Part shown: positions 5,915-58,599 of the stretch, piece by piece
Position numbering within the stretch: position 1 is the first letter of the stretch
Layout: each line of letters begins with the position of its first letter
NCBI GenBank assembly: GCA_964016885.1
Contig: OZ024744.1
Span: forward strand, 133,238,001-133,302,000
Reading direction: 5' to 3'
Source: Eledone cirrhosa
Taxonomy: Eukaryota
DNA length: 64,000 bases
The notes under the pieces: model-generated
What the model was told of the DNA's origin: nothing
Seen by the model: the letters and a program-made list of their open reading frames with translations, nothing else
The model's database searches: none
Translations under genes and position numbers: made by a program

Positions 5915-6087
5915 GGGCTTAAGTTAAGTTGGGGCTAAGTTAAGTTGGGGTTAAGTCAAGTTGGAAGTTGTGGTTGAGTGAAGTTGGGGTTAAGTTAAGT
6001 TGGGGTTGAGTGAAGTTGGGGTTAAGTTAAGTTGGGGTTGAGTTACGTTGGGGTTGAGTGAAGTTGGGGTTAAGTTAAGTTGGGGTT
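5915..6087 (-). repeat. Inverted satellite cassette copy 1 (173 bp)
   Basis: Starts GGGCTTAAGTTAAGTTGGGG after CCCCGACTTA and ends GGGGTT|AACCCC. Carries the GAGTTACG variant. Confidence 0.97.
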
Positions 6088-9000
6088 AACCCCAACTTAA
6101 CTTAACCCCAACTTAACTTAACCCCAACTTAACTTAACCCCAACATAACTTAACCCCAACTTAAATTAACCCCAACTTAACTTAAACTCAACTTAACTAA
6201 CCAACTTAACTTAACCCCAACTTAACTTAACCCCAACTTAACTTAACCCCAACTTAACTTAACCCCAACTTAACTTAACCCCAACTTAAATTAACCCCAA
6301 CTTAACTTAACCCCAACTTAACTTAACCCCGACTTAACTTAACCCCAACTTAACTTAACCCCAACTTAACTTAGCCCCAACTTAACTTAGCCCCAACTTA
6401 ACTTAGCCCCAACTTAACTTAACCCCAACTTAACATAACCGCACCTTAACTTAACCTCAACTTAACTTAACTGCAACTTAACTTAACCCCAACTTAACTT
6501 AACCCCAACTTAACTCAACACCAACTTAACTCAACCCCAACTTAACTCAACCCCAATTTAACTCAACCCCAACTTAACTCAAACCCAACTTAACTTAACC
6601 CCAACTTAACTGAACCCTAACTTAACTTAACCCCGACTTAAATTAAGCCCAACTTAACTTAACCCCAACTTAACTCAGCCCCAACTTAACTTAGCCCTAA
6701 CTTAACTTAACCCCAACTTAACTTAACCCCAACTTAATTAACCCCAACTTAAATTAACCCCAACTTAACTTAACACCAACTTAACATAACCCCATCTTAA
6801 ATAAACCCCAACTTAAATTAACCCCAACTTAACTTAACCCCAACTTAACTTAACCCCAACTTAACTCAGCCCCAACTTAACTTAGCCCCAACTTAACTTA
6901 ACCCCAACTTAACTTAACCCCAACTTAACTTAACCCCAACTTAACTTATCCCCAACTTAACTTAACCCCAACTTAACTTAAACCCAACTTAACTTAACCC
7001 CAACTTAAACTATCCCCAACTTAACTTATCCCCAACTTAACTTAACCCCAACTTAACTTAACCCCAACTTAACTTAACCCCAACTTAATTTAACCCCAAC
7101 TTAACTTAACCTCAACTTAACTTAACCCCAACTTAACTTAACCCCAACTTAACTTAACCCCAACTTAAATTAGCCCCAACTTAACTTAACCCCAACTTAA
7201 ATTAACCCCAACTTAACTTAACCCCAACTTAACTTAACCCCGACTTAAATTAACCCCAACTTAACTTAACCCCAACTTAACTTAACCCCAACTTAACTTA
7301 ACCACAAATTAACTTAACCCCAACTTAACTTAACCCCAACTTAACTTAACCCCAACTTAACTTAACCCCAACTTAACTTAACCCCAACTTAACTTAAACC
7401 TAACTTAACTTAACCCCAACTTAACCCCAACTTAACTTGACCCCAACTTAACTTAACCCCAACTTAACTCAACCCCAACTTAACTTAACCCCAACTTCCC
7501 TCAGCCCCAACTTAACTCAGCCCCAACTTAACTTAGCCCCAACTTAACTTAACACCAACTTAACTTAACCCCAACTTAACTTAACCCCAACTTAACTTAA
7601 CCCCAACTTAACTCAACCCCAACTTAACTTAACCCCAACTTAACTCAGCCCCAACTTAACTCAGCCCCAACTTAACTTAGCCCCAACTTAACTTAACACC
7701 AACTTAACTTAACCCCAACTTAACTTAACCCCAACTTAACTTAACCCCAACTTAACTTATCCCCAACTTAACTGAACCCCAACTTAACTTAACCCCAACT
7801 TAATATAACCCCAACTTAACTTAACCCCAACTTAACTCAACCCCAACTTAAATTAACCCCAACTTAACTTAACCCCAACTTAACTTAACCCCAACTTAAT
7901 TAACCCCAACTTAAATTAACCCCAACTTAACTTAACACCAACTTAACGTAACCCCAACTTAACTTAACCCCAACTTAACTTAAACCTAACTTAACTTAAC
8001 CCCAACTTAACCCCAACTTAACTTGACCCCAACTTAACTTAACCCCAACTTAACTCAACCCCAACTTAACTTAACCCCAACTTAACTCAGCCCCAACTTA
8101 ACTCAGCCCCAACTTAACTTAGCCCCAACTTAACTTAACACCAACTTAACTTAACCCCAACTTAACTTAACCCCAACTTAACTTAACCCCAACTTAACTT
8201 ATCCCCAACTTAACTGAACCCCAACTTAACTGAACCCCAACTTAAATTAACCCCAACTTAACTTAACCCCAACTTAACTTAACCCCAACTTAACTCAACA
8301 CCAACTTAACTCAACCCCAACTTAACTCAACCCCAATTTAACTCAACCCCAACTTAACTCAACCCCAACTTAACTTAACCCCAACTTAACTGAACCCTAA
8401 CTTAACTTAACCCCGACTTAACTTAACCCCGACTTAACTTAACCCCAACTTAACTTAACCCCAACTTAACTTAACCCCAACTTAACTTAACCCCATCTTA
8501 ACCCCAACTTAACTTAACCCCAACTTAACTGAACCCCAACTTAAATTAACCCCAACTTAAATAAACCCCAACTTAACTTAACCCCAACTTAACTTAACCC
8601 CAACTTAACTCAGCCCCAACTTAACTTAGCCCCAACTTAACTTAACCCCAACTTAACTTAACCCCAACTTAACTTAACCCCAACTTAACTTAACCCCAAC
8701 TTAACTTAACCCCAACTTAACTTAAACCCAACTTAACTTAACCCCAACTTAAATTATCCCCAACTTAACTTATCCCCAACTTAACTTAACCCCAACTTAA
8801 CTTAACCCCAACTTAACTTAACCCCAACTTAATTTAACCCCAACTTAACTTAACCTCAACTTAACTTAACCCCAACTTAACTTAACCCCATCTTAACTTA
8901 ACCCCAACTTAACTTAACCCCAACTTAACTTAACCCCAACTTAAATTAACCCCAACTTAACTTAACCCCAACTTAACTTAACCCCGACTTAACTTAACCC

Positions 9001-10079
9001 CAACTTAACTTAACCCCAACTTAACTTAACCCCAACTTAACCCCAACTTAACTTGACCCCAACTTAACTTAACCCCAACTTAACTCAACCCCAACTTAAC
9101 TTAACCCCAACTTAACTCAGCCCCAACTTAACTCAGCCCCAACTTAACTTAGCCCCAACTTAACTTAACACCAACTTAACTTAACCCCACCTTAACTTAA
9201 CCCCAACTTAACTTAACCCCAACTTAACGTATCCCCAACTTAACTGAACCCCAACTTAACTTAACCCCAACTTAATATAACCCCAACTTAACTTAACCCC
9301 AACTTAACTCAACCCCAACTTAAATTAACCCCAACTTAACTTAACCCCAACTTAACTTAACCCCAACTTAATTAACCCCAACTTAAATTAACCCCAACTT
9401 AACTTAACACCAACTTAACGTAACCCCAACTTAATTTAACCCCAACTTAAATTAACCCCAACTTAACTTGCCCCCAACTTAACTTACCCCCAACGTAACT
9501 TAACCCCAACTTAATTTAACCCCAACTTAATTTAACCCCAACTTAACTTAACCCCAAATTAACTCAACCCCAACTTAACTCAACCCCAACTTAACTTAAC
9601 CCCAACTTAACTTAACCCCAACTTAACTTAACCACAAATTAACTTAGCCCCAACTTAAATTAACCCCAACTTAACTCAACCACAACTTAACTTAACCCCG
9701 ACCTAACTTAACCCCAACTTAACTTAACCCCAACTTAACTTAACCCCAACTTCACTCAACCCCAACTTAACTCAACCCCAACTTAACCCCAACTTAACTT
9801 AACCCCAACTTAAATTAACCACAAAGTTAACTTAACCCCAATTTAAATTAACCCCAACTTAACTTAACCCCAACTTAACATAACCACCACTTAATTAACC
9901 CCAACTTAACTCAACCCCAACTTAACTTAACCCTAACTTAACTTAACCCCAACTTAACCGCAACTTAACTTAACCCCAACTTAACTTACCCCCAACTTAA
10001 CTTACCCCCAACTTAACTGAACCCCAACTTAAGTTAAGCCTAACTTAACTTAACGCCAACTTAACTTAACCCCGACTTA

Positions 10080-10252
10080 GGGCTTAAGTTAAGTTGGGGC
10101 TAAGTTAAGTTGGGGTTAAGTCAAGTTGGAAGTTGTGGTTGAGTGAAGTTGGGGTTAAGTTAAGTTGGGGTTGAGTGAAGTTGGGGTTAAGTTAAGTTGG
10201 GGTTGAGTTAAGTTGGGGTTGAGTGAAGTTGGGGTTAAGTTAAGTTGGGGTT
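10080..10252 (-). repeat. Inverted satellite cassette copy 2 (173 bp)
   Basis: Same junctions and length as copy 1. Carries the GAGTTAAG variant. Confidence 0.97.
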
Positions 10253-11108
10253 AACCCCAACTTAACTTAACCCCAACTTAACTTAACCCCAACTTAACTT
10301 AACCCCAACTTAACTTAACCCCAACATAACTTAACCCCAACTTAAATTAACCCCAACTTAACTTAAACTCAACTTAACTAACCAACTTAACTTAACCCCA
10401 ACTTAACTTAACCCCAACTTAACTTAACCCCAACTTAACTTAACCCCAACTTAACTTAACCCCAACTTAAATTAACCCCAACTTAACTTAACCCCAACTT
10501 AACTTAACCCCGACTTAACTTAACCCCAACTTAACTTAACCCCAACTTAACTTAGCCCCAACTTAACTTAGCCCCAACTTAACTTAGCCCCAACTTAACT
10601 TAACCCCAACTTAACATAACCGCACCTTAACTTAACCTCAACTTAACATAACTGCAACTTAACTTAACCCCAACTTAACTTAACCCCAACTTAACTCAAC
10701 ACCAACTTAACTCAACCCCAACTTAACTCAACCCCAATTTAACTCAACCCCAAGTTAACTCAACCCCAACTTAACTTAACCCCAACTTAACTGAACCCTA
10801 ACTTAACTTAACCCCGACTTAAATTAAGCCCAACTTAACTTAACCCCAACTTAACTCAGCCCCAACTTAACTTAGCCCTAACTTAACTTAACCCCAACTT
10901 AACTTAACCCCAACTTAATTAACCCCAACTTAAATTAACCCCAACTTAACTTAACACCAACTTAACATAACCCCATCTTAAATAAACCCCAACTTAAATT
11001 AACCCCAACTTAACTTAACCCCAACTTAACTTAACCCCAACTTAACTCAGCCCCAACTTAACTTAGCCCCAACTTAACTTAACCCCAACTTAACTTAACC
11101 CCGACTTA

Positions 11109-11281
11109 GGGCTTAAGTTAAGTTGGGGCTAAGTTAAGTTGGGGTTAAGTCAAGTTGGAAGTTGTGGTTGAGTGAAGTTGGTGTTAAGTTAAGTTGGGGT
11201 TGAGTGAAGTTGGGGTTAAGTTAAGTTGGGGTTGAGTTACGTTGGGGTTGAGTGAAGTTGGGGTTAAGTTAAGTTGGGGTT
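11109..11281 (-). repeat. Inverted satellite cassette copy 3 (173 bp)
   Basis: Same junctions. Carries GAGTTACG plus a GGTGTT variant at about 11181. Confidence 0.97.
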
Positions 11282-14200
11282 AACCCCAACTTAACTTAAC
11301 CCCAACTTAACTTAACCCCAACTTAACTTAACCCCAACTTAACTTAACCCCAACATAACTTAACCCCAACTTAAATTAACCCCAACTTAACTTAAACTCA
11401 ACTTAACTAACCAACTTAACTTAACCCCAACTTAACTTAACCCCAACTTAACTTAACCCCAACTTAACTTAACCCCAACTTAACTTAACCCCAACTTAAA
11501 TTAACCCCAACTTAACTTAACCCCAACTTAACTTAACCCCGACTTAACTTAACCCCAACTTAACTTAACCCCAACTTAACTTAGCCCCAACTTAACTTAG
11601 CCCCAACTTAACTTAGCCCCAACTTAACTTAACCCCAACTTAACATAACCGCACCTTAACTTAACCTCAACTTAACTTAACTGCAACTTAACTTAACCCC
11701 AACTTAACTTAACCCCAACTTAACTCAACACCAACTTAACTCAACCCCAACTTAACTCAACCCCAATTTAACTCAACCCCAACTTAACTCAACCCCAACT
11801 TAACTTAACCCCAACTTAACTGAACCCTAACTTAACTTAACCCCGACTTAAATTAAGCCCAACTTAACTTAACCCCAACTTAACTCAGCCCCAACTTAAC
11901 TTAGCCCTAACTTAACTTAACCCCAACTTAACTTAACCCCAACTTAATTAACCCCAACTTAAATTAACCCCAACTTAACTTAACACCAACTTAACATAAC
12001 CCCATCTTAAATAAACCCCAACTTAAATTAACCCCAACTTAACTTAACCCCAACTTAACTTAACCCCAACTTAACTCAGCCCCAACTTAACTTAGCCCCA
12101 ACTTAACTTAACCCCAACTTAACTTAACCCCAACTTAACTTAACCCCAACTTAACTTATCCCCAACTTAACTTAACCCCAACTTAACTTAAACCCAACTT
12201 AACTTAACCCCAACTTAAACTATCCCCAACTTAACTTATCCCCAACTTAACTTAACCCCAACTTAACTTAACCCCAACTTAACTTAACCCCAACTTAATT
12301 TAACCCCAACTTAACTTAACCTCAACTTAACTTAACCCCAACTTAACTTAACCCCAACTTAACTTAACCCCAACTTAAATTAGCCCCAACTTAACTTAAC
12401 CCCAACTTAAATTAACCCCAACTTAACTTAACCCCAACTTAACTTAACCCCGACTTAAATTAACCCCAACTTAACTTAACCCCAACTTAACTTAACCCCA
12501 ACTTAACTTAAACCTAACCTAACTTAACCCCAACTTAACCCCAATTTAACTTGACCCCAACTTAACTTAACCCCAACTTAACTCAGCCCCAACTTAACTT
12601 AGCCACAACTTAACTTAACACCAACTTAACTTAACCCCAACTTAACTTAACCCCAACTTAACTTAACCCCAACTTAACTTATCCCCAACTTAACTGAACC
12701 CCAACTTAACTTAACCCCAACTTAATATAACCCCAACTTAACTTAACCCCAACTTAACTCAACCCCAACTTAAATTAACCCCAACTTAACTTATCCCCAA
12801 CTTAACTTAACCCCAACTTAATTAACCCCAACTTAAATTAACCCCAACTTAACTTAACACCAACTTAACGTAACCCCAATTTAACTTAACCCCAACTTAA
12901 CTTAAACCTAACTTAACTTAACCCCAACTTAACCCCAACTTAACTTGACCCCAACTTAACTTAACCCCAACTTAACTCAACCCCAACTTAACTTAACCCC
13001 AACTTAACTCAGCCCCAACTTAACTCAGCCCCAACTTAACTTATCCCCAACTTAACTGAACCCCAACTTAACTGAACCCCAACTTAAATTAACCCCAACT
13101 TAACTTAACCCCAACTTAACTTAACCCCAACTTAACTCAACACCAACTTAACTCAACCCCAACTTAAATCAACCCCAATTTAACTCAACCCCAACTTAAC
13201 TCAACCCCAACTTAACTTAACCCCAACTTAACTGAACCCTAACTTAACTTAACCCCGACTTAACTTAACCCCGACTTAACTTAACCCCAACTTAACTTAA
13301 CCCCAACTTAACTTAACCCCAACTTAACTTAACCCCAACTTAATTTAACCCCATCTTAACCCCAACTTAACTTAACCCCAACTTAACTGAACCCCAACTT
13401 AACTTAACCCCAACTTAAATAAACCCCAACTTAACTTAACCCCAACTTAACTTAACCCCAACTTAACTTAACCCCAACTTAACTCAGCCCCAACTTAACT
13501 TAGCCCCAACTTAACTTAACCCCAACTTAACTTAACCCCAACTTAACTTAACCCCAACTTAACTTAACCCCAACTTAACTTAAACCCAACTTAACTTAAC
13601 CCCAACTTAAATTATCCCCAACTTAACTTATCCCCAACTTAACTTAACCCCAACTTAACTTAACCCCAACTTAACTTAACCCCAACTTAATTTAACCCCA
13701 ACTTAACTTAACCTCAACTTAACTTAACCCCAACTTAACTTAACCCCATCTTAACTTAACCCCAACTTAACTTAACCCCAACTTAACTTAACCCCAACTT
13801 AAATTAACCCCAACTTAACTTAACCCCAACTTAACTTAACCCCGACTTAACTTAACCCCAACTTAACTTAACCCCAACTTAACTTAACCCCAACTTAACC
13901 CCAACTTAACTTGACCCCAACTTAACTTAACCCCAACTTAACTCAACCCCAACTTAACTTAACCCCAACTTAACTCAGCCCCAACTTAACTCAGCCCCAA
14001 CTTAACTTAGCCCCAACTTAACTTAACACCAACTTAACTTAACCCCACCTTAACTTAACCCCAACTTAACTTAACCCCAACTTAACTTATCCCCAACTTA
14101 ACTGAACCCCAACTTAACTTAACCCCAACTTAATATAACCCCAACTTAACTTAACCCCAACTTAACTCAACCCCAACTTAAATTAACCCCAACTTAACTT

Positions 14201-14937
14201 AACCCCAACTTAACTTAACCCCAACTTAATTAACCCCAACTTAAATTAACCCCAACTTAACTTAACACCAACTTAACGTAACCCCAACTTAATTTAACCC
14301 CAACTTAAATTAACCCCAACTTAACTTGCCCCCAACTTAACTTACCCCCAACGTAACTTAACCCCAACTTAATTTAACCCCAACTTATTTTAACCCCAAC
14401 TTAACTTAACCCCAAATTAACTCAACCCCAACTTAACTCAACCCCAACTTAACTTAACCCCAACTTAACTTAACCCCAACTTAACTTAACCACAAATTAA
14501 CTTGGCCCCAACTTAAATTAACCCCAACTTAACTCAACCACAACTTAACTTAACCCCGACCTAACTTAACCCCAACTTAACTTAACCCCAACTTAACTTA
14601 ACCCCAACTTCACTCAACCCCAACTTAACTCAACCCCATCTTAACCCCAACTTAACTTAACCCCAACTTAAATTAACCACAAAGTTAACTTAACCCCAAT
14701 TTAAATTAACCCCAACTTAACTTAACCCCAACTTAACATAACCACCACTTAATTAACCCCAACTTAACTCAACCCCAACTTAACTTAACCCTAACTTAAC
14801 TTAACCCCAACTTAACCGCAACTTAACTTAACCCCAACTTAACTTACCCCCAACTTAACTTACCCCCAACTTAACTGAATCCCAACTTAAGTTAAGCCTA
14901 ACTTAACTTAACGCCAACTTAACTTAACCCCGACTTA

Positions 14938-15110
14938 GGGCTTAAGTTAAGTTGGGGCTAAGTTAAGTTGGGGTTAAGTCAAGTTGGAAGTTGTGGTTGA
15001 GTGAAGTTGGGGTTAAGTTAAGTTGGGGTTGAGTGAAGTTGGGGTTAAGTTAAGTTGGGGTTGAGTTACGTTGGGGTTGAGTGAAGTTGGGGTTAAGTTA
15101 AGTTGGGGTT
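14938..15110 (-). repeat. Inverted satellite cassette copy 4 (173 bp)
   Basis: Same junctions. Carries the GAGTTACG variant. Confidence 0.97.
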
Positions 15111-15966
15111 AACCCCAACTTAACTTAACCCCAACTTAACTTAACCCCAACTTAACTTAACCCCAACTTAACTTAACCCCAACATAACTTAACCCCAACT
15201 TAAATTAACCCCAACTTAACTTAAACTCAACTTAACTAACCAACTTAACTTAACCCCAACTTAACTTAACCCCAACTTAACTTAACCCCAACTTAACTTA
15301 ACCCCAACTTAACTTAACCCCAACTTAAATTAACCCCAACTTAACTTAACCCCAACTTAACTTAACCCCGACTTAACTTAACCCCAACTTAACTTAACCC
15401 CAACTTAACTTAGCCCCAACTTAACTTAGCCCCAACTTAACTTAGCCCCAACTTAACTTAACCCCAACTTAACATAACCGCACCTTAACTTAACCTCAAC
15501 TTAACTTAACTGCAACTTAACTTAACCCCAACTTAACTTAACCCCAACTTAACTCAACACCAACTTAACTCAACCCCAACTTAACTCAACCCCAATTTAA
15601 CTCAACCCCAACTTAACTCAACCCCAACTTAACTTAACCCCAACTTAACTGAACCCTAACTTAACTTAACCCCGACTTAAATTAAGCCCAACTTAACTTA
15701 ACCCCAACTTAACTCAGCCCCAACTTAACTTAGCCCTAACTTAACTTAACCCCAACTTAACTTAACCCCAACTTAATTAACCCCAACTTAAATTAACCCC
15801 AACTTAACTTAACACCAACTTAACATAACCCCATCTTAAATAAACCCCAACTTAAATTAACCCCAACTTAACTTAACCCCAACTTAACTTAACCCCAACT
15901 TAACTCAGCCCCAACTTAACTTAGCCCCAACTTAACTTAACCCCAACTTAACTTAACCCCGACTTA

Positions 15967-16139
15967 GGGCTTAAGTTAAGTTGGGGCTAAGTTAAGTTGG
16001 GGTTAAGTCAAGTTGGAAGTTGTGGTTGAGTGAAGTTGGGGTTAAGTTAAGTTGGGGTTGAGTGAAGTTGGGGTTAAGTTAAGTTGGGGTTGAGTTACGT
16101 TGGGGTTGAGTGAAGTTGGGGTTAAGTTAAGTTGGGGTT
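15967..16139 (-). repeat. Inverted satellite cassette copy 5 (173 bp)
   Basis: Same junctions. Reads the same as copy 1. Confidence 0.97.
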
Positions 16140-19100
16140 AACCCCAACTTAACTTAACCCCAACTTAACTTAACCCCAACTTAACTTAACCCCAACATAA
16201 CTTAACCCCAACTTAAATTAACCCCAACTTAACTTAAACTCAACTTAACTAACCAACTTAACTTAACCCCAACTTAACTTAACCCCAACTTAACTTAACC
16301 CCAACTTAACTTAACCCCAACTTAACTTAACCCCAACTTAAATTAACCCCAACTTAACTTAACCCCAACTTAACTTAACCCCGACTTAACTTAACCCCAA
16401 CTTAACTTAACCCCAACTTAACTTAGCCCCAACTTAACTTAGCCCCAACTTAACTTAGCCCCAACTTAACTTAACCCCAACTTAACATAACCGCACCTTA
16501 ACTTAACCTCAACTTAACTTAACTGCAACTTAACTTAACCCCAACTTAACTTAACCCCAACTTAACTCAACACCAACTTAACTCAACCCCAACTTAACTC
16601 AACCCCAATTTAACTCAACCCCAACTTAACTCAAACCCAACTTAACTTAACCCCAACTTAACTGAACCCTAACTTAACTTAACCCCGACTTAAATTAAGC
16701 CCAACTTAACTTAACCCCAACTTAACTCAGCCCCAACTTAACTTAGCCCTAACTTAACTTAACCCCAACTTAACTTAACCCCAACTTAATTAACCCCAAC
16801 TTAAATTAACCCCAACTTAACTTAACACCAACTTAACATAACCCCATCTTAAATAAACCCCAACTTAAATTAACCCCAACTTAACTTAACCCCAACTTAA
16901 CTTAACCCCAACTTAACTCAGCCCCAACTTAACTTAGCCCCAACTTAACTTAACCCCAACTTAACTTAACCCCAACTTAACTTAACCCCAACTTAACTTA
17001 TCCCCAACTTAACTTAACCCCAACTTAACTTAAACCCAACTCAACTTAACCCCAACTTAAACTATCCCCAACTTAACTTATCCCCAACTTAACTTAACCC
17101 CAACTTAACTTAACCCCAACTTAACTTAACCCCAACTTAATTTAACCCCAACTTAACTTAACCTCAACTTAACTTAACCCCAACTTAACTTAACCCCAAC
17201 TTAACTTAACCCCAACTTAAATTAGCCCCAACTTAACTTAACCCCAACTTAAATTAACCCCAACTTAACTTAACCCCAACTTAACTTAACCCCGACTTAA
17301 ATTAACCCCAACTTAACTTAACCCCAACTTAACTTAACCCCAACTTAACTTAACCACAAATTAACTTAACCCCAACTTAACTTAACCCCAACTTAACTTA
17401 ACCCCAACTTAACTTAACCCCAACTTAACTTAACCCCAACTTAACTTAAACCTAACTTAACTTAACCCCAACTTAACCCCAACTTAACTTGACCCCAACT
17501 TAACTTAACCCCAACTTAACTCAACCCCAACTTAACTTAACCCCAACTTCCCTCAGCCCCAACTTAACTCAGCCCCAACTTAACTTAGCCCCAACTTAAC
17601 TTAACACCAACTTAACTTAACCCCAACTTAACTTAACCCCAACTTAACTTAACCCCAACTTAACTCAACCCCAACTTAACTTAACCCCAACTTAACTCAG
17701 CCCCAACTTAACTCAGCCCCAACTTAACTTAGCCCCAACTTAACTTAACACCAACTTAACTTAACCCCAACTTAACTTAACCCCAACTTAACTTAACCCC
17801 AACTTAACTTATCCCCAACTTAACTGAACCCCAACTTAACTTAACCCCAACTTAATATAACCCCAACTTAACTTAACCCCAACTTAACTCAACCCCAACT
17901 TAAATTAACCCCAACTTAACTTAACCCCAACTTAACTTAACCCCAACTTAATTAACCCCAACTTAAATTAACCCCAACTTAACTTAACACCAACTTAACG
18001 TAACCCCAACTTAACTTAACCCCAACTTAACTTAAACCTAACTTAACTTAACCCCAACTTAACCCCAACTTAACTTGACCCCAACTTAACTTAACCCCAA
18101 CTTAACTCAACCCCAACTTAACTTAACCCCAACTTAACTCAGCCCCAACTTAACTCAGCCCCAACTTAACTTAGCCCCAACTTAACTTAACACCAACTTA
18201 ACTTAACCCCAACTTAACTTAACCCCAACTTAACTTAACCCCAACTTAACTTATCCCCAACTTAACTGAACCCCAACTTAACTGAACCCCAACTTAAATT
18301 AACCCCAACTTAACTTAACCCCAACTTAACTTAACCCCAACTTAACTCAACACCAACTTAACTCAACCCCAACTTAACTCAACCCCAATTTAACTCAACC
18401 CCAACTTAACTCAACCCCAACTTAACTTAACCCCAACTTAACTGAACCCTAACTTAACTTAACCCCGACTTAACTTAACCCCGACTTAACTTAACCCCAA
18501 CTTAACTTAACCCCAACTTAACTTAACCCCAACTTAACTTAACCCCATCTTAACCCCAACTTAACTTAACCCCAACTTAACTGAACCCCAACTTAAATTA
18601 ACCCCAACTTAAATAAACCCCAACTTAACTTAACCCCAACTTAACTTAACCCCAACTTAACTTAACCCCAACTTAACTCAGCCCCAACTTAACTTAGCCC
18701 CAACTTAACTTAACCCCAACTTAACTTAACCCCAACTTAACTTAACCCCAACTTAACTTAACCCCAACTTAACTTAACCCCAACTTAACTTAAACCCAAC
18801 TTAACTTAACCCCAACTTAAATTATCCCCAACTTAACTTATCCCCAACTTAACTTAACCCCAACTTAACTTAACCCCAACTTAACTTAACCCCAACTTAA
18901 TTTAACCCCAACTTAACTTAACCTCAACTTAACTTAACCCCAACTTAACTTAACCCCATCTTAACTTAACCCCAACTTAACTTAACCCCAACTTAACTTA
19001 ACCCCAACTTAAATTAACCCCAACTTAACTTAACCCCAACTTAACTTAACCCCGACTTAACTTAACCCCAACTTAACTTAACCCCAACTTAACTTAACCC

Positions 19101-20147
19101 CAACTTAACCCCAACTTAACTTGACCCCAACTTAACTTAACCCCAACTTAACTCAACCCCAACTTAACTTAACCCCAACTTAACTCAGCCCCAACTTAAC
19201 TCAGCCCCAACTTAACTTAGCCCCAACTTAACTTAACACCAACTTAACTTAACCCCACCTTAACTTAACCCCAACTTAACTTAACCCCAACTTAACGTAT
19301 CCCCAACTTAACTGAACCCCAACTTAACTTAACCCCAACTTAATATAACCCCAACTTAACTTAACCCCAACTTAACTCAACCCCAACTTAAATTAACCCC
19401 AACTTAACTTAACCCCAACTTAACTTAACCCCAACTTAATTAACCCCAACTTAAATTAACCCCAACTTAACTTAACACCAACTTAACGTAACCCCAACTT
19501 AATTTAACCCCAACTTAAATTAACCCCAACTTAACTTGCCCCCAACTTAACTTACCCCCAACGTAACTTAACCCCAACTTAATTTAACCCCAACTTAATT
19601 TAACCCCAACTTAACTTAACCCCAAATTAACTCAACCCCAACTTAACTCAACCCCAACTTAACTTAACCCCAACTTAACTTAACCCCAACTTAACTTAAC
19701 CACAAATTAACTTAGCCCCAACTTAAATTAACCCCAACTTAACTCAACCACAACTTAACTTAACCCCGACCTAACTTAACCCCAACTTAACTTAACCCCA
19801 ACTTAACTTAACCCCAACTTCACTCAACCCCAACTTAACTCAACCCCAACTTAACCCCAACTTAACTTAACCCCAACTTAAATTAACCACAAAGTTAACT
19901 TAACCCCAATTTAAATTAACCCCAACTTAACTTAACCCCAACTTAACATAACCACCACTTAATTAACCCCAACTTAACTCAACCCCAACTTAACTTAACC
20001 CTAACTTAACTTAACCCCAACTTAACCGCAACTTAACTTAACCCCAACTTAACTTACCCCCAACTTAACTTACCCCCAACTTAACTGAACCCCAACTTAA
20101 GTTAAGCCTAACTTAACTTAACGCCAACTTAACTTAACCCCGACTTA

Positions 20148-20320
20148 GGGCTTAAGTTAAGTTGGGGCTAAGTTAAGTTGGGGTTAAGTCAAGTTGGAAG
20201 TTGTGGTTGAGTGAAGTTGGGGTTAAGTTAAGTTGGGGTTGAGTGAAGTTGGGGTTAAGTTAAGTTGGGGTTGAGTTAAGTTGGGGTTGAGTGAAGTTGG
20301 GGTTAAGTTAAGTTGGGGTT
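20148..20320 (-). repeat. Inverted satellite cassette copy 6 (173 bp)
   Basis: Same junctions. Reads the same as copy 2. Confidence 0.97.
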
Positions 20321-48200: not shown

Positions 48201-49754
48201 AAATTAACCCCAACTTAAATAAACCCCAACTTAACTTAACCCCAACTTAACTTAACCCCAACTTAACTTAACCCCAACTTAACTCAGCCCCAACTTAACT
48301 TAGCCCCAACTTAACTTAACCCCAACTTAACTTAACCCCAACTTAACTTAACCCCAACTTAACTTAACCCCAACTTAACTTAACCCCAACTTAACTTAAA
48401 CCCAACTTAACTTAACCCCAACTTAAATTATCCCCAACTTAACTTATCCCCAACTTAACTTAACCCCAACTTAACTTAACCCCAACTTAACTTAACCCCA
48501 ACTTAATTTAACCCCAACTTAACTTAACCTCAACTTAAATTAACCCAAACTTAACTTAACCCCATCTTAACTTAACCCCAACTTAACTTAACCCCAACTT
48601 AACTTAACCCCAACTTAAATTAACCCCAACTTAACTTAACCCCAACTTAACTTAACCCCGACTTAACTTAACCCCAACTTAACTTAACCCCAACTTAACT
48701 TAACCCCAACTTAACCCCAACTTAACTTGACCCCAACTTAACTTAACCCCAACTTAACTCAACCCCAACTTAACTTAACCCCAACTTAACTCAGCCCCAA
48801 CTTAACTCAGCCCCAACTTAACTTAGCCCCAACTTAACTTAACACCAACTTAACTTAACCCCACCTTAACTTAACCCCAACTTAACTTAACCCCAACTTA
48901 ACTTATCCCCAACTTAACTGAACCCCAACTTAACTTAACCCCAACTTAATATAACCCCAACTTAACTTAACCCCAACTTAACTCAACCCCAACTTAAATT
49001 AACCCCAACTTAACTTAACCCCAACTTAACTTAACCCCAACTTAATTAACCCCAACTTAAATTAACCCCAACTTAACTTAACACCAACTTAACGTAACCC
49101 CAACTTAATTTAACCCCAACTTAAATTAACCCCAACTTAACTTGCCCCCAACTTAACTTACCCCCAACGTAACTTAACCCCAACTTAATTTAACCCCAAC
49201 TTAATTTAACCCCAACTTAACTTAACCCCAAATTAACTCAACCCCAACTTAACTCAACCCCAACTTAACTTAACCCCAACTTAACTTAACCCCAACTTAA
49301 CTTAACCACAAATTAACTTAGCCCCAACTTAAATTAACCCCAAGTTAACTCAACCACAACTTAACTTAACCCCGACCTAACTTAACCCCAACTTAACTTA
49401 ACCCCAACTTAACTTAACCCCAACTTCACTCAACCCCAACTTAACTCAACCCCAACTTAACCCCAACTTAACTTAACCCCAACTTAAATTAACCACAAAG
49501 TTAACTTAACCCCAATTTAAATTAACCCCAACTTAACTTAACCCCAACTTAACATAACCACCACTTAATTAACCCCAACTTAACTCAACCCCAACTTAAC
49601 TTAACCCTAACTTAACTTAACCCCCAACTTAACCGCAACTTAACTTAACCCCAACTTAACTTACCCCCAACTTAACTTACCCCCAACTTAACTGAACCCC
49701 AACTTAAGTTAAGCCTAACTTAACTTAACGCCAACTTAACTTAACCCCGACTTA

Positions 49755-49927
49755 GGGCTTAAGTTAAGTTGGGGCTAAGTTAAGTTGGGGTTAAGTCAAG
49801 TTGGAAGTTGTGGTTGAGTGAAGTTGGGGTTAAGTTAAGTTGGGGTTGAGTGAAGTTGGGGTTAAGTTAAGTTGGGGTTGAGTTACGTTGGGGTTGAGTT
49901 ACGTTGGGGTTAAGTTAAGTTGGGGTT
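49755..49927 (-). repeat. Inverted satellite cassette copy 10 (173 bp)
   Basis: Same junctions. Two consecutive GAGTTACG monomers. Confidence 0.97.
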
Positions 49928-50789
49928 AACCCCAACTTAACTTAACCCCAACTTAACTTAACCCCAACTTAACTTAACCCCAACTTAACTTAACCCCAAC
50001 ATAACTTAACCCCAACTTAAATTAACCCCAACTTAACTTAAACTCAACTTAACTAACCAACTTATCTTAACCCCAACTTAACTTAACCCCAACTTAACTT
50101 AACCCCAACTTAACTTAACCCCAACTTAACTTAACCCCAACTTAAATTAACCCCAACTTAACTTAACCCCAACTTAACTTAACCCCGACTTAACTTAACC
50201 CCAACTTAACTTAACCCCAACTTAACTTAGCCCCAACTTAACTTAGCCCCAACTTAACTTAGCCCCAACTTAACTTAACCCCAACTTAACATAACCGCAC
50301 CTTAACTTAACCTCAACTTAACTTAACTGCAACTTAACTTAACCCCAACTTAACTTAACCCCAACTTAACTCAACACCAACTTAACTCAACCCCAACTTA
50401 GCTCAACCCCAATTTAACTCAACCCCAAGTTAACTCAACCCCAACTTAACTTAACCCCAACTTAACTGAACCCTAACTTAACTTAACCCCGACTTAAATT
50501 AAGCCCAACTTAACTTAACCCCAACTTAACTCAGCCCCAACTTAACTTAGCCCTAACTTAACTTAACCCCAACTTAACTTAACCCCAACTTAATTAACCC
50601 CAACTTAAATTAACCCCAACTTAACTTAACACCAACTTAACGTAACCCCATCTTAAATAAACCCCAACTTAAATTAACCCCAACTTAACTTAACCCCAAC
50701 TTAACTTAACCCCAACTTAACTCAGCCCCAACTTAACTTAGCCGCAACTTAACTTAACCCCAACTTAACTTAACCCCAACTTAACTTAA

Positions 50790-51240
50790 CCCCAACTTAA
50801 CTTATCCCCAACTTAACTTAACCCCAACTTAACTTAAACCCAACTTAACTTAACCCCAACTTAAACTATCCCCAACTTAACTTATCCCCAACTTAACTTA
50901 ACCCCAACTTAACTTAACCCCAACTTAACTTAACCCCAACTTAATTTAACCCCAACTTAACTTAACCTCAACTTAACTTAACCCCAACTTAACTTAACCC
51001 CAACTTAACTTAACCCCAACTTAACTTATCCCCAACTTAACTTAACCCCAACTTAACTTAAACCCAACTTAACTTAACCCCAACTTAAACTATCCCCAAC
51101 TTAACTTATCCCCAACTTAACTTAACCCCAACTTAACTTAACCCCAACTTAACTTAACCCCAACTTAATTTAACCCCAACTTAACTTAACCTCAACTTAA
51201 CTTAACCCCAACTTAACTTAACCCCAACTTAACTTAACCC
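50790..51240 (+). repeat. 224-bp (14-monomer) local tandem duplication; repeated at about 59460-59910
   Basis: AAACTATCCCC occurs at 50863 and 51087, and again at 59535 and 59759. Confidence 0.85.
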
Positions 51241-54200
51241 CAACTTAAATTAGCCCCAACTTAACTTAACCCCAACTTAAATTAACCCCAACTTAACTTA
51301 ACCCCAACTTAACTTAACCCCGACTTAAATTAACCCCAACTTAACTTAACCCCAACTTAACTTAACCCCAACTTAACTTAACCACAAATTAACTTAACCC
51401 CAACTTAACTTAACCCCAACTTAACTTAACCCCAACTTAACTTAACCCCAACTTAACTTAACCCCAACTTAACTTAAACCTAACTTAACTTAACCCCAAC
51501 TTAACCCCAACTTAACTTGACCCCAACTTAACTTAACCCCAACTTAACTCAACCCCAACTTAACTTAACCCCAACTTCACTCAGCCCCAACTTAACTCAG
51601 CCCCAACTTAACTTAGCCCCAACTTAACTTAACACCAACTTAACTTAACCCCAACTTAACTTAACCCCAACTTAACTCAACCCCAACTTAACTCAGCCCC
51701 AACTTAACTCAGCCCCAACTTAACTTAGCCCCAACTTAACTTAACACCAACTTAACTTAACCCCACCTTAACTTAACCCCAACTTAACTTAACCCCAACT
51801 TAACTTATCCCCAACTTAACTGAACCCCAACTTAACTTAGTCCCAACTTAACTTAGCCCCAACTTAACTTAACCCCAACTTAACTTAACCCCAACTTAAC
51901 TTAACCCCAACTTAACTTATCCCCAACTTAACTTAACCCCAACTTAACTTAAAGCCAACTTAACTTAACCCCAACTTAAATTATCCCCAACTTAACTTAT
52001 CCCCAACTTAACTTAACCCCAACTTAACTTAACCCCAACTTAACTTAACCACAACTTAATTTAACCCCAACTTAACTTAACCTCAACTTAACTTAACCCC
52101 AACTTAACTTAACCCCAACTTAACTTAACCCCAACTTAACTTAACCCCAACTTAACTTAACCAGAAATTAACTTAACCCCAACTTAACTTAACCCCAACT
52201 TAACTTAAACCTAACTTAACTTAACCCCAACTTAACCCCAACTTCACTTGACCCCAACTTAACTTAACCCCAACTTCACTCAGCCCCAACTTAACTCAGC
52301 CCCAACTTAACTTAGCCCCAACTTAACTTAACACCAACTTAACTTAACCCCAACTTAACCCCAACTTAACTTAACCCCAATTTAACTCAACCCCAACTTA
52401 ACTTAACCCCAACTTAACTCAGCCCCAACTTAACTCAGCCCCAACTTAACTTAGCCCCAACTTAACTTAACACCAACTTAACTTAACCCCAACTTAACTT
52501 AACCCCAACTTAACTTAACCCCAACTTAACTTATCCCCAACTTAACTGAACCCCAACTTAACTTAACCCCAACTTAATATAACCCCAACTTAACTTAACC
52601 CCAACTTAACTCAACCCCAACTTAACTTAACCCCAACTTAACTTAACCCCAACTTAATTAACCCCAACTTAAATTAACCCCAACTTAACTTAACACCAAC
52701 TTAACGTAACCCCAACTTAACTTAACCCCAACTTAACTTAAACCTAACTTAACTTAACCCCAACTTAACCCCAACTTAACTTGACCCCAACTTAACTTAA
52801 CCCCAACTTAACTCAACCCCAACTTAACTTAACCCCAACTTAACTCAGCCCCAACTTAACTCAGCCCCAACTTAACTTAGCCCCAACTTAACTTAACCCC
52901 AACTTAACTTAACCCCAACTTAACTTAACCCCAACTTAACTTATCCCCAACTCAACTGAACCCCAACTTAACTGAACCCCAACTTAAATTAACCCCAACT
53001 TAACTTAACCCCAACTTAACTTAACCCCAACTTAACTCAACACCAACTTAACTCAACCCCAACTTAACTCAACCCCAATTTAACTCAACCCCAACTTAAC
53101 TCAACCCCAACTTAACTTAACCCCAACTTAACTGAACCCTAACTTAACTTAACCCCGACTTAACTTAACCCCGACTTAACTTAACCCCAACTTAACTTAA
53201 CCCCAACTTAACTTAACCCCAACTTAACTTAAACCTAACTTAACTTAACCCCAACTTAACCCCAACTTAACTTGACCCCAACTTAACTTAACCCCAACTT
53301 AACTCAACCCCAACTTAACTTAACCCCAACTTAACTCAGCCCCAACTTAACTCAGCCCCAACTTAACTTAGCCCCAACTTAACTTAACACCAACTTAACT
53401 TAACCCCAACTTAACTTAACCCCAACTTAACTTAACCCCAACTTAACTCATCCCCAACTTAACTGAACCCCAACTTAACTGAACCCCAACTTAAATTAAC
53501 CCCAACTTAACTTAACCCCAACTTAACTTAACCCCAACTTAACTCAACACCAACTTAACTCAACCCCAACTTAACTCAACCCCAATTTAACTCAACCCCA
53601 ACTTAACTTAACCCCAACTTAACTTAACCCCAACTTAACTGAACCCTAACTTAACTTAACCCCGACTTAACTTAACCCCGACTTAACTTAACCCCAACTT
53701 AACTTAACCCCAACTTAACTTAACCCCAACTTAACTTAACCCCAACTTAATTTAACCCCATCTTAACCCCAACTTAACTTAACCCCAACTTAACTGAACC
53801 CCAACTTAAATTAACCCCAACTTAAATAAACCCCAACTTAACTTAACCCCAACTTAACTTAACCCCAACTTAACTTAACCCCAACTTAACTCAGCCCCAA
53901 CTTAACTTAGCCCCAACTTAACTTAACCCCAACTTAACTTAACCCCAACTTAACTTAACCCCAACTTAACTTAACCCCAACTTAACTTAACCCCAACTTA
54001 ACTTAAACCCAACTTAACTTAACCCCAACTTAAATTATCCCCAACTTAACTTATCCCCAACATAACTTAACCCCAACTTAACTTAACCCCAACTTAACTT
54101 AACCCCAACTTAATTTAACCCCAACTTAACTTAACCTCAACTTAACTTAACCCCAACTTAACTTAACCCCATCTTAACTTAACCCCAACTTAACTTAACC

Positions 54201-57200
54201 CCAACTTAACTTAACCCCAACTTAAATTAACCCCAACTTAACTTAACCCCAACTTAACTTAACCCCGACTTAACTTAACCCCAACTTAACTTAACCCCAA
54301 CTTAACTTAACCCCAACTTAACCCCAACTTAACTTGACCCCAACTTAACTTAACCCCAACTTAACTCAACCCCAACTTAACTTAACCCCAACTTAACTCA
54401 GCCCCAACTTAACTCAGCCCCAACTTAACTTAGCCCCAACTTAACTTAACACCAACTTAACTTAACCCCACCTTAACTTAACCCCAACTTAACTTAACCC
54501 CAACTTAACTTATCCCCAACTTAACTGAACCCCAACTTAACTTAACCCCAACTTAATATAACCCCAACTTAACTTAACCCCAACTTAACTCAACCCCAAC
54601 TTAAATTAACCCCAACTTAACTTAACCCCAACTTAACTTAACCCCAACTTAATTAACCCCAACTTAAATTAACCCCAACTTAACTTAACACCAACTTAAC
54701 GTAACCCCAACTTAATTTAACCCCAACTTAAATTAACCCCAACTTAACTTGCCCCCAACTTAACTTACCCCCAACGTAACTTAACCCCAACTTAATTTAA
54801 CCCCAACTTAATTTAACCCCAACTTAACTTAACCCCAAATTAACTCAACCCCAACTTAACTCAACCCCAACTTAACTTAACCCCAACTTAACTTAACCCC
54901 AACTTAACTTAACCACAAATTAACTTAGCCCCAACTTAAATTAACCCCAAGTTAACTCAACCACAACTTAACTTAACCCCGACCTAACTTAACCCCAACT
55001 TAACTTAACCCCAACTTAACTCAACCCCAACTTAACTCAACCCCAATTTAACTCAACCCCAACTTAACTCAACCCCAACTTAACTTAACCCCAACTTAAC
55101 TGAACCCTAACTTAACTTAACCCCGACTTAACTTAACCCCGACTTAACTTAACCCCAACTTAACTTAACCCCAACTTAACTTAACCCCAACTTAACTTAA
55201 CCCCAACTTAATTTAACCCCATCTTAACCCCAACTTAACTTAACCCCAACTTAACTGAACCCCAACTTAAATTAACCCCAACTTAAATAAACCCCAACTT
55301 AACTTAACCCCAACTTAACTTAACCCCAACTTAACTTAACCCCAACTTAACTCAGCCCCAACTTAACTTAGCCCCAACTTAACTTAACCCCAACTTAACT
55401 TAACACCAACTTAACTTAACCCCAACTTAACTTAACCCCAACTTAACTTAACCCCAACTTAACTTAAACCCAACTTAACTTAACCCCAACTTAAATTATC
55501 CCCAACTTAACTTATCCCCAACTTAACTTAACCCCAACTTAACTTAACCCCAACTTAACTTAACCCCAACTTAATTTAACCCCAACTTAATTTAACCTCA
55601 ACTTAACTTAACCCCAACTTAACTTAACCCCATCTTAACTTAACCCCAACTTAACTTAACCCCAACTTAACTTAACCCCAACTTAAATTAACCCCAACTT
55701 AACTTAACCCCAACTTAACTTAACCCCGACTTAACTTAACCCCAACTTAACTTAACCCCAACTTAACTTAACCCCAACTTAACCCCAACTTAACTTGACC
55801 CCAACTTAACTTAACCCCAACTTAACTCAACCCCAACTTAACTTAACCCCAACTTAACTCAGCCCCAACTTAACTCAGCCCCAACTTAACTTAGCCCCAA
55901 CTTAACTTAACACCAACTTAACTTAACCCCACCTTAACTTAACCCCAACTTAACTTAACCCCAACTTAACTTATCCCCAACTTAACTGAACCCCAACTTA
56001 ACTTAACCCCAACTTAATATAACCCCAACTTAACTTAACCCCAACTTAACTCAACCCCAACTTAAATTAACCCCAACTTAACTTAACCCCAACTTAACTT
56101 AACCCCAACTTAATTAACCCCAACTTAAATTAACCCCAACTTAACTTAACACCAACTTAACGTAACCCCAACTTAATTTAACCCCAACTTAAATTAACCC
56201 CAACTTAACTTGCCCCCAACTTAACTTACCCCCAACGTAACTTAACCCCAACTTAATTTAACCCCAACTTAATTTAACCCCAACTTAACTTAACCCCAAA
56301 TTAACTCAACCCCAACTTAACTCAACCCCAACTTAACTTAACCCCAACTTAACTTAACCCCAACTTAACTTAACCACAAATTAACTTAGCCCCAACTTAA
56401 ATTAACCCCAAGTTAACTCAACCACAACTTAACTTAACCCCGACCTAACTTAACCCCAACTTAACTTAACCCCAACTTAACTTGACCCCAACTTAACTTA
56501 ACCCCAACTTAACTCAACCCCAACTTAACTTAACCCCAACTTAACTCAGCCCCAACTTAAATTAACCCCAACTTAACTTAACCCCAACTTAACTTAACCC
56601 CAACTTAACTCAACACCAACTTAACTCAACCCCAACTTAACTCAACCCCAATTTAACTCAACCCCAACTTAACTCAACCCCAACTTAACTTAACCCCAAC
56701 TTAACTGAACCCTAACTTAACTTAACCCCGACTTAACTTAACCCCGACTTAACTTAACGCCAACTTAACTTAACCCCAACTTAACTTAACCCCAACTTAA
56801 CTTAACCCCAACTTAATTTAACCCCATCTTAACCCCAACTTAACTTAACCCCAACTTAACTGAACCCCACCTTAAATTAACCCCAACTTAAATAAACCCC
56901 AACTTAACTTAACCCCAACTTAACTTAACCCCAACTTAACTTAACCCCAACTTAACTCAGCCCCAACTTAACTTAGCCCCAACTTAACTTAACCCCAACT
57001 TAACTTAACCCCAACTTAACTTAACCCCAACTTAACTTAACCCCAACTTAACTTAACCCCAACTTAACTTAAACCCAACTTAACTTAACCCCAACTTAAA
57101 TTATCCCCAACTTAACTTATCCCCAACTTAACTTAACCCCAACTTAACTTAACCCCAACTTAACTTAACCCCAACTTAATTTAACCCCAACTTAACTTAA

Positions 57201-58426
57201 CCTCAACTTAAATTAACCCAAACTTAACTTAACCCCATCTTAACTTAACCCCAACTTAACTTAACCCCAACTTAACTTAACCCCAACTTAAATTAACCCC
57301 AACTTAACTTAACCCCAACTTAACTTAACCCCGACTTAACTTAACCCCAACTTAACTTAACCCCAACTTAACTTAACCCCAACTTAACCCCAACTTAACT
57401 TGACCCCAACTTAACTTAACCCCAACTTAACTCAACCCCAACTTAACTTAACCCCAACTTAACTCAGCCCCAACTTAACTCAGCCCCAACTTAACTTAGC
57501 CCCAACTTAACTTAACACCAACTTAACTTAACCCCACCTTAACTTAACCCCAACTTAACTTAACCCCAACTTAACTTATCCCCAACTTAACTGAACCCCA
57601 ACTTAACTTAACCCCAACTTAATATAACCCCAACTTAACTTAACCCCAACTTAACTCAACCCCAACTTAAATTAACCCCAACTTAACTTAACCCCAACTT
57701 AACTTAACCCCAACTTAATTAACCCCAACTTAAATTAACCCCAACTTAACTTAACACCAACTTAACGTAACCCCAACTTAATTTAACCCCAACTTAAATT
57801 AACCCCAACTTAACTTGCCCCCAACTTAACTTACCCCCAACGTAACTTAACCCCAACTTAATTTAACCCCAACTTAATTTAACCCCAACTTAACTTAACC
57901 CCAAATTAACTCAACCCCAACTTAACTCAACCCCAACTTAACTTAACCCCAACTTAACTTAACCCCAACTTAACTTAACCACAAATTAACTTAGCCCCAA
58001 CTTAAATTAACCCCAAGTTAACTCAACCACAACTTAACTTAACCCCGACCTAACTTAACCCCAACTTAACTTAACCCCAACTTAACTTAACCCCAACTTC
58101 ACTCAACCCCAACTTAACTCAACCCCAACTTAACCCCAACTTAACTTAACCCCAACTTAAATTAACCACAAAGTTAACTTAACCCCAATTTAAATTAACC
58201 CCAACTTAACTTAACCCCAACTTAACATAACCACCACTTAATTAACCCCAACTTAACTCAACCCCAACTTAACTTAACCCTAACTTAACTTAACCCCAAC
58301 TTAACCGCAACTTAACTTAACCCCAACTTAACTTACCCCCAACTTAACTTACCCCCAACTTAACTGAACCCCAACTTAAGTTAAGCCTAACTTAACTTAA
58401 CGCCAACTTAACTTAACCCCGACTTA

Positions 58427-58599
58427 GGGCTTAAGTTAAGTTGGGGCTAAGTTAAGTTGGGGTTAAGTCAAGTTGGAAGTTGTGGTTGAGTGAAGTTGGG
58501 GTTAAGTTAAGTTGGGGTTGAGTGAAGTTGGGGTTAAGTTAAGTTGGGGTTGAGTTACGTTGGGGTTGAGTTACGTTGGGGTTAAGTTAAGTTGGGGTT
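58427..58599 (-). repeat. Inverted satellite cassette copy 11 (173 bp)
   Basis: Same junctions. Two consecutive GAGTTACG monomers, as in copy 10. Confidence 0.97.

What the first reader, a model, noticed from the sequence alone, without database searches (positions are those of the whole stretch)
5915..58599. A 173-bp inverted cassette repeated 11 times inside a strand-polarised satellite
Seen: the + strand is nearly G-free except for 11 blocks starting at 5915, 10080, 11109, 14938, 15967, 20148, 21177, 25246, 33042, 49755 and 58427. In each block the monomer is reverse-complemented. Every block is exactly 173 bp (3x16 + 7 + 7x16 + 6) with identical junctions, while the flanking array gains and loses monomers freely. 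Inference: one inversion or insertion event was amplified with the higher-order repeat. The constant, roughly nucleosome-sized length could reflect functional constraint (a phasing or protein landmark) or simply recent origin.
Basis: partly seen in the sequence, partly recalled or inferred. Interest (0 to 1): 0.75.

Follow-up and report, generated by a model that had tools for sequence, protein, structure and literature searches.

The report
Small satellite inversion copied 900-fold
Eleven identical back-to-front pieces in a 16-letter DNA repeat are near-identical members of a family of about 960 in one long array; they likely descend from a single old copying slip and were likely multiplied as passengers, and their 173-letter length is only one of many in the family, so it is probably ordinary repeat evolution rather than a nucleosome-sized landmark.

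Summary
Observation confirmed: 11 inverted blocks of 173 bp, same two junctions, 0-4 differences. They are a local sample of a family of about 960 cassettes in a ~9-Mb 16-bp satellite. Across 204 sampled copies the length takes 33 values, 125-520 bp; 173 bp is one clade (297 scar hits) made by a 9-bp deletion from a 182-bp form. Copies share their flanks (193 of 205), 214 kb of the array lacks them, and one site in the window has lost its cassette cleanly. The 173-bp clade really is more length-stable than flanks and sister clades; lack of identical neighbouring monomers accounts for much of this, and substitutions are not reduced near the window. Seven of 8 junction types lie in the monomer's TTAA, and two independent cassette families carry an inverted copy of their flank, pointing to template switching. 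Verdict: one amplified inversion, likely a passenger; resembles Tribolium conserved inversion sites. The scan found this family before in other windows of the same array.

The parts
1..64000 (+). 16-bp satellite CCCCAACTTAACTTAA, part of a ~9-Mb array on G000:C28 (window = 133,238,001-133,302,000)
5915..6087 (-). inverted cassette 1 (173 bp)
10080..10252 (-). inverted cassette 2
11109..11281 (-). inverted cassette 3; second copy in a 1,029-bp tandem duplication whose crossover lies just upstream of the cassette
14938..15110 (-). inverted cassette 4
15967..16139 (-). inverted cassette 5 (1,029 bp after cassette 4)
20148..20320 (-). inverted cassette 6
21177..21349 (-). inverted cassette 7 (1,029 bp after cassette 6)
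25246..25418 (-). inverted cassette 8
33042..33214 (-). inverted cassette 9
49755..49927 (-). inverted cassette 10
58427..58599 (-). inverted cassette 11
5905..5925 (+). left (tail-to-tail) junction J1 of cassette 1; not a palindrome, not at TTAA, 1-base microhomology; family marker
6082..6093 (.). right (head-to-head) junction J2 of cassette 1; perfect palindrome centred on the monomer's second TTAA
5951..5973 (-). scar of a 9-bp deletion between short direct repeats that turned a 182-bp form into the 173-bp form
4912..5165 (+). empty site: the usual upstream and downstream flank markers joined with the cassette and about 4.6 upstream monomers (249 bp in all) missing

Best explanation
The 11 blocks are near-identical copies of one short inverted stretch of the satellite's own monomers, part of a family of about 960 in this array, which likely arose once by a replication template switch at the monomer's self-complementary TTAA and was then likely multiplied passively by tandem block duplication. 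Shown: family size, shared junctions and flanks, many lengths, the 9-bp deletion behind 173 bp, cassette-free stretches, one empty site. Inferred: (1) origin by template switching, from the TTAA bias of independent junctions and from two sibling families that carry an inverted copy of their flank; (2) the 173-bp clade keeps its length because it holds no two identical neighbouring monomers to slip on and, lying on the other strand, cannot exchange out of register with its flanks without flipping them; (3) now and then a cassette serves as the homologous exit of a larger strand flip, and now and then it is deleted by recombination between its flanks.
For: 963 hits for the degenerate left junction, 777/783 for the right one, reversed controls 0. 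33 lengths, 125-520 bp, in 204 copies; 173 bp is 25 of 95 in 38 blocks, most of them at round-number positions and 297 scar hits genome-wide. Lengths change mostly by whole monomers. 193 of 205 copies have the same two-monomer marker within 110 bp upstream, against 925 of 7806 background windows. No left-junction hit listed between 124.69 and 130.25 Mb; no strand switch in 214,487 gap-free bases from 133,355,377; 1 empty site among 139 upstream-anchor sites. Indel rate in 10 flank windows rises with perfect tandem monomers (Spearman 0.64, p 0.048); the fit expects 2.4 indels for the cassette, 1 seen. The 173-bp form has 0 perfect 16+16 starts against 12-26 in sister clades. 7 of 8 junction types have 4-base TTAA microhomology, which 20 of 256 phase pairs offer (binomial 1e-7; 5 of 6 counted strictly, 2e-5). 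The C18 family (3 of 3 sampled) and the 128.6-129.6-Mb family (11 of 11 sampled) contain an exact inverted copy, 46-95 bp, of their downstream flank; matched by 0 of 131 and 0 of 196 nearby windows. Two larger flips end inside or at the edge of a 173-bp cassette.
Against: The window family itself lacks the template-switch duplication (a flank block with 4 or more variant bases in only 2 of 204 copies) and its left junction is not at TTAA, so its origin is inferred from siblings. Against all flank windows unadjusted, the cassette's length stability is significant (1 indel against 5.2 expected, P 0.035; with breaks 1-3 against 9.2, P 0.001-0.015), and indels per substitution are 0.028 against 0.14-0.26 in sister clades and 0.16-0.37 in flanks (pairwise, not independent). 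In the older 29 copies of the 173 clade the inside is less diverged than the flanks (0.007 against 0.018-0.031 per base). The 173 clade is the commonest single form. The tandem-content correlation rests on 10 windows and is not significant once breaks are included (p 0.17). No chromatin data were available.
Confidence: 0.78

Rival explanations
1. The 173-bp form is kept at its length by selection or drive, as a nucleosome-sized strand flip or hairpin that positions chromatin or binds a protein.
For: 99 of 102 sampled copies with the scar are exactly 173 bp across 4.75 Mb; about tenfold fewer indels per substitution than sister clades; largest clade, 297 of ~960; cassette plus flanks fold into long stems, -163 kcal/mol, z -24; a similar role is proposed, untested, for Tribolium inversion sites (PMC13081366).
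Against: Two thirds of the family have other lengths, up to 520 bp; irregular spacing; megabases without cassettes; clean loss of one; substitutions not reduced in the clade around the window; stability largely predicted by monomer heterogeneity; the satellite seems nearly confined to one contig (estimated 9.2 Mb genome-wide against about 9 Mb on C28). Folding energy follows trivially from any inversion in a repeat.
Confidence: 0.1
2. The founding event was a break-and-rejoin inversion in place (two cuts, end trimming, microhomology joining) rather than a template switch; amplification was passive as in the best explanation.
For: The window family shows no flanking duplication; its two junctions fit an inversion with a few bases lost at each end; the C18 family has reciprocal TTAA junctions nine monomers apart; the flank copies inside sibling cassettes could be later arm-to-arm copying, as 2 of 204 main-family copies show.
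Against: In both sibling families the shared block starts at the first base of the downstream flank, 36 and 73 bases into the cassette, as a template switch with a spacer predicts; the junctions of the 128.6-129.6-Mb family are not reciprocal at the middle base of the 9-bp quasi-palindrome.
Confidence: 0.3
3. The cassette is a small mobile element (foldback, MITE or TTAA-targeting type) that inserted repeatedly.
For: One end sits in TTAA; hundreds of copies.
Against: It holds only satellite monomers; 193 of 205 copies share the same flank marker; no unrelated insertion sites among 205; only one end is at TTAA.
Confidence: 0.02
4. The cassettes are assembly or sequencing artefacts (fold-back chimeras).
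For: Both junctions are hairpin-like; a nearby contig end is visibly noisy; the exact A form of the left junction was not seen in the four runs.
Against: Copies carry shared, nested variants that sort by region; the family junction is in Logan contigs of X1 and X2 and, by my reading, in raw reads of three other samples, including a regional variant seen in the assembly.
Confidence: 0.02

Closest known systems
Conserved inversion sites and macro-dyad symmetries in Tribolium satellites (T. madens TmSat1/TmSat2, PMC13081366; T. freemani TfSat01, PMC12581902)
   Same: Strand switches inside a satellite array with no foreign DNA at the joint; a few junction types repeated in hundreds to thousands of near-identical copies; 'cassettes' with fixed ends and a variable number of repeats inside; function proposed but untested.
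   Different: Here the inverted arm is 0.1-0.5 kb in a one-strand background, not two kilobase arms of similar size; listed copies lie in one array on one contig rather than on many chromosomes; large parts of the array lack them; the genome is 3.0 Gb, so not Tribolium.
Small inverted triplications (PMC13334657) and ODIRA-type template switches (PMC10766183)
   Same: Short reverse-complementary microhomology at junctions; inverted piece near the reported median of 160 bp (here 144, 213-245, 125-520); spacers of 36 and 73 bp against a median of 30; clean loss by slippage or recombination.
   Different: The full DUP/IN/DUP form is not found: the window family has neither duplication, the two sibling families only the downstream one; here the product was amplified hundreds of times in the germ line.
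Inversion breakpoints in human HSat3/beta-satellite and mouse minor satellite arrays (bioRxiv 10.1101/2021.07.12.452052; PMC12583555)
   Same: Short-period satellites with many strand switches (over 200 in the human arrays named); larger inversions ascribed to recombination between similar repeats.
   Different: The passages I saw count breakpoints and do not trace them to one amplified founder; I did not read their supplements.

Membership tests
Tribolium-type macro-dyad symmetry | Orientation switch within the array, no foreign sequence at the joint | tested here: met
Tribolium-type macro-dyad symmetry | Inversion sites conserved in many copies | tested here: met
   963 and ~780 hits
Tribolium-type macro-dyad symmetry | Two multi-kilobase subarrays of roughly balanced length | tested here: not met
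   inverted arm 125-520 bp between 0.2-20-kb forward stretches
Tribolium-type macro-dyad symmetry | Same junction types on several chromosomes | tested here: inconclusive
   all 100 listed hits are on C28; 9, 863 and 197 hits were not listed
Tribolium-type macro-dyad symmetry | (Peri)centromeric location | not testable with these tools
   no CENP-A or cytology; array lies in the last 12 Mb of a 136.5-Mb contig
Small inverted triplication / ODIRA product | Reverse-complementary microhomology at both junctions | tested here: not met
   right junction TTAA yes, left junction 1 base; met in the two sibling families
Small inverted triplication / ODIRA product | Flanking duplications on both sides (DUP/IN/DUP) | tested here: not met
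   absent in 202 of 204 main-family copies; downstream side only in sibling families; may have been erased by later turnover
Small inverted triplication / ODIRA product | Inverted fragment of Okazaki-fragment scale (median 160 bp) | tested here: met
   144, 213-245 and modal 173 bp
Small inverted triplication / ODIRA product | Breakpoints at Okazaki junctions; dependence on FEN1 | not testable with these tools
   no replication or mutant data
Non-autonomous DNA transposon | Copies at unrelated insertion sites with target duplications | tested here: not met
   193 of 205 share the flank marker

The most novel reading that the evidence does not exclude
A 9-bp deletion froze one inverted cassette at 173 bp, and that form has since out-multiplied its variable-length sisters across 4.75 Mb because a nucleosome-sized strand flip (ten G-tracts on the C strand between two hairpin-forming joints) is favoured in this array's chromatin; the array would be a natural experiment, outside Tribolium, on whether satellite dyad symmetries are selected.
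Probability: 0.1. Interest if true: 0.7.

Novelty: new member of a known kind. Interest (0 to 1): 0.28.

Why it matters
Conserved inversion sites in satellites have been read as possible functional landmarks (PMC13081366 says such symmetries were documented only in Tribolium). This array shows that one mutation carried along by block duplication gives the same picture, with founder, length clades, losses and independent repeats of the event all readable in one assembly. It also offers a mundane reason for a nucleosome-like size (template switches of Okazaki-fragment scale, then a slippage-poor sequence) and suggests that small inversions seed larger ones. If the 173-bp form did prove selected, it would be a direct test case for the non-B-DNA view of satellite function.

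Tried and rejected
1. 'Tail-to-tail perfect palindromes are never kept': a strict pattern gave 0 hits (gap engine works), but the C18 family has exactly such a junction with a variant base just outside; rejected. 2. 'The window's strand domain is a mirror-image duplicate of the region to its right': nearest-relative order not significant (Spearman +0.28, p 0.15, 28 copies; +0.39, p 0.15, 15 copies); rejected. 3. Finding the reciprocal breakpoint of the large flip: the domain's left edge is a 200-N scaffold gap with a noisy contig end, so not testable. 4. A forward-strand donor of the cassette: all 68 hits of an internal marker have the strand expected for cassettes of their region; none identified. 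No RNA holder listed. 6. Literature: six rotations of the monomer, 0 papers; 'macro-dyad' plus 'satellite', 5 papers, 4 listed, all on insects by title; a search on a recalled guess of the taxon gave nothing relevant. 7. One catalogue row (590 bp) was a background stretch between two cassettes and was dropped but is among the 205. Junctions at AT-rich inserts, at gaps and in the diverged repeat at 124.599 Mb were left out of the 8 junction types. 8. One search failed on a script error and was repeated.
Full report
1. The observation. The window is one array of CCCCAACTTAACTTAA. Eleven G-dense blocks start at the stated places, are 173 bp, differ at 0-4 positions and share both junctions. Spacings are 4165, 1029, 3829, 1029, 4181, 1029, 4069, 7796, 16713 and 8672 bp. 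A monomer-by-monomer parse shows the cassettes riding in an irregular 4-5-kb block; cassettes 3, 5 and 7 come from a 1,029-bp tandem duplication, and later blocks are stretched by internal duplications. The right junction is a perfect palindrome on the monomer's second TTAA; the left one is not.

2. The setting. The window is G000:C28:133,238,001-133,302,000 in a 3.0-Gb genome. Samples show the satellite from about 126-127 to 135.3 Mb of the 136.5-Mb contig, with another block at 124.6 Mb. The density of a 36-letter probe gives about 9.2 Mb genome-wide, so most of it is this array; smaller arrays lie on C2 (as a 520-bp composite) and C18. Most of the array is on the other strand; the window lies in a flipped domain that begins at a 200-N scaffold gap (132,793,543) and ends at 133,355,377 in gap-free sequence.

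3. The family. The exact left junction has 109 hits, a degenerate version 963, the right junction 777/783; reversed controls 0. From 1.256 Mb in 90 blocks I catalogued 205 stretches bounded by both junctions; one 590-bp row was background and was dropped where noted. The 204 have 33 lengths, 125-520 bp, mostly in whole-monomer steps; my sample is enriched near the window, and in 38 blocks, most at round-number positions, 25 of 95 are 173 bp. The 173-bp form is a 182-bp form minus 9 bp between short direct repeats; its scar has 297 exact hits, about 31% of the family. 193 of 205 copies share an upstream marker found in 925 of 7806 background windows: the cassette moves with its flanks. No left-junction hit is listed between 124.69 and 130.25 Mb, and 214,487 bases right of the domain have no switch. 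Of 139 upstream-anchor sites, 124 lead to a cassette, 14 to other sequence and 1, at window 4912-5165, directly to the downstream flank with 249 bp missing: a clean loss.

4. Is 173 bp constrained? In 72 copies of the clade around the window the interior has 1 length change and 23 distinct substitutions; four 173-bp flank windows have 4, 4, 12 and 6 indels or breaks and 7, 15, 9 and 15 substitutions (Fisher p 0.002). Two events that broke a cassette are missed by requiring both junctions; counting them, 3 against 9.2 expected, P 0.015. Over ten flank windows pure indels rise with perfect adjacent monomer pairs (Spearman 0.64, p 0.048; with breaks p 0.17); the cassette has none, and the fit expects 2.4 against 1 seen; unadjusted, 5.2 (P 0.035). 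Substitutions are 23 against 15.1 expected (P 0.036), so sequence is not conserved there. Across clades, indels per substitution are 0.028 for the 173 clade, 0.14-0.26 for three sister groups whose commonest forms have 12-26 perfect tandem starts, and 0.16-0.37 for flanks; in the older 29 copies the interior is less diverged than the flanks. These counts use distinct alleles or related pairs, not events on a tree. I infer that slippage has little to act on and that an inverted block cannot exchange out of register with its flanks, while cassette-to-cassette conversion may homogenise it; selection on length is not excluded.

5. Origin. Two further families arose independently: about 29 copies at 128.57-129.60 Mb (213-245 bp) and 3 on C18 (144 bp). 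With two lone junctions at 131,964,578 and 132,859,238 this makes 8 junction types, 7 in TTAA; only 20 of 256 phase pairs offer that microhomology. Both sibling families hold an exact inverted copy of the start of their downstream flank (63-70 bp with 2-3 variant bases; 46-95 bp with 5-6), unmatched in 131 and 196 nearby windows, and neither matches upstream convincingly. That is half of the DUP/IN/DUP form of small inverted triplications (median inverted piece 160 bp, spacer 30 bp, junction 6 bp; PMC13334657). Template switching is therefore inferred for the window family, not shown.

6. Larger flips. At 132.857 Mb a 2,042-bp reversed block is an inverted copy of the stretch to its right and returns to the main strand through a whole cassette. 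At 133,355,377 the left junction and about 38 bases of cassette run straight into other array sequence on the opposite strand. Both fit cassettes acting as homologous exits (inference; also in note e1-10311134). The reciprocal end falls at a scaffold gap, and a mirror-duplication test failed.

7. Real DNA? The family junction lies in Logan contigs of X1 (66 and 68 letters, 4 and 2 differences) and X2 (0 differences, depth 950), one sample that may be the source. In raw reads of X17, X18 and X19, 18, 63 and 38 reads are counted at a place that plain-array reads reach only at their ends, and 12, 11 and 6 of them carry the variant of the 131.2-131.9-Mb copies; that these span the junction is my reading of the table. 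The A form specific to the window's clade was not seen.

8. Comparison. Closest are the conserved inversion sites of Tribolium satellites (PMC13081366: abstract, outline and 12 passages; PMC12581902: 12 passages). It works like them in fixed junctions and variable interiors but fails the balanced multi-kilobase arms. Strand switches are also known in human HSat3 and beta satellite (bioRxiv 10.1101/2021.07.12.452052, 7 passages) and mouse satellites (PMC12583555, 2 passages). ODIRA: PMC10766183, abstract and outline only. PMC13334657: 12 passages and the Discussion. No supplements were read; breakpoint tables there may bear on how common amplified single inversions are. The monomer was not found in print.

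9. Earlier notes. After my own catalogue, one search returned seven notes on other windows of this array with the same passenger reading; they are unreviewed and not independent support. One search found none near this window. Added here: the 9-bp scar that defines 173 bp, the rate comparison, the empty site and the half-triplication form of the sibling families.

10. Verdict. Real, well explained, new member of a known kind. Passenger reading 0.78; selected 173-bp landmark 0.1. Interest 0.28.

Noticed in passing
G000:C28:128.57-129.60 Mb (L101-L109): A second, independent inverted-cassette family (213-245 bp, about 29 copies), both junctions in the TTAA-C/G-TTAA quasi-palindrome, often about 830 bp from a 2-3-kb AT-rich insert; one copy at 128,584,730 is itself part of a reversed block.
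   Followed up: partly
G000:C18:10.129-10.189 Mb (L110, L112): A third family, 144 bp, 3 copies, with perfect palindromes at both ends, nine monomers apart.
   Followed up: partly
L029:3543-5100 (G000:C28:132,793,543 onward): 200-N scaffold gap followed by about 200 bp of a different 16-bp unit (TTTTAACCTAACCTAA-like) and about 1.1 kb of noisy C/A-only sequence that fades into the satellite; looks like a poorly called read end. The contigs between the gaps at 131.987 and 132.794 Mb resemble the 124.6-Mb block and may be misplaced.
   Followed up: partly
window, monomer: The monomer splits into CCCCAA, CTTAA, CTTAA, each one change from common telomere units (CCCTAA, CCTAA; recalled, not from a call); an 11-bp variant CCCCAACTTAA occurs 69 times. 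A telomere-derived origin is possible. G4Hunter mean is 1.08 for the cassette on the + strand.
   Followed up: no
L040 (G000:C2:209.196 Mb onward): A composite tandem repeat of about 520 bp: about 270 bp of unrelated sequence plus 140-280 bp of the 16-bp monomer; its edge also appears in a contig of run X4 (organism B).
   Followed up: no
L006-L008, L021-L028, L075-L079 (G000:C28:132.05-132.79 Mb): Very AT-rich, internally repetitive inserts of 0.7-8.4 kb (one 10-kb sample entirely) interleaved with the satellite, often ending directly on a short inverted piece.
   Followed up: no
L033, L038, L039, L020: Non-satellite flanks are dense in AT and CA microsatellites and a dispersed repeat that I recall from cephalopod genomes; recall only, untested.
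   Followed up: no
G000:C28:131,404,195 and 132,608,445: Two cassettes have taken in marker blocks from their own downstream or upstream flank in inverted orientation, likely arm-to-arm copying.
   Followed up: partly
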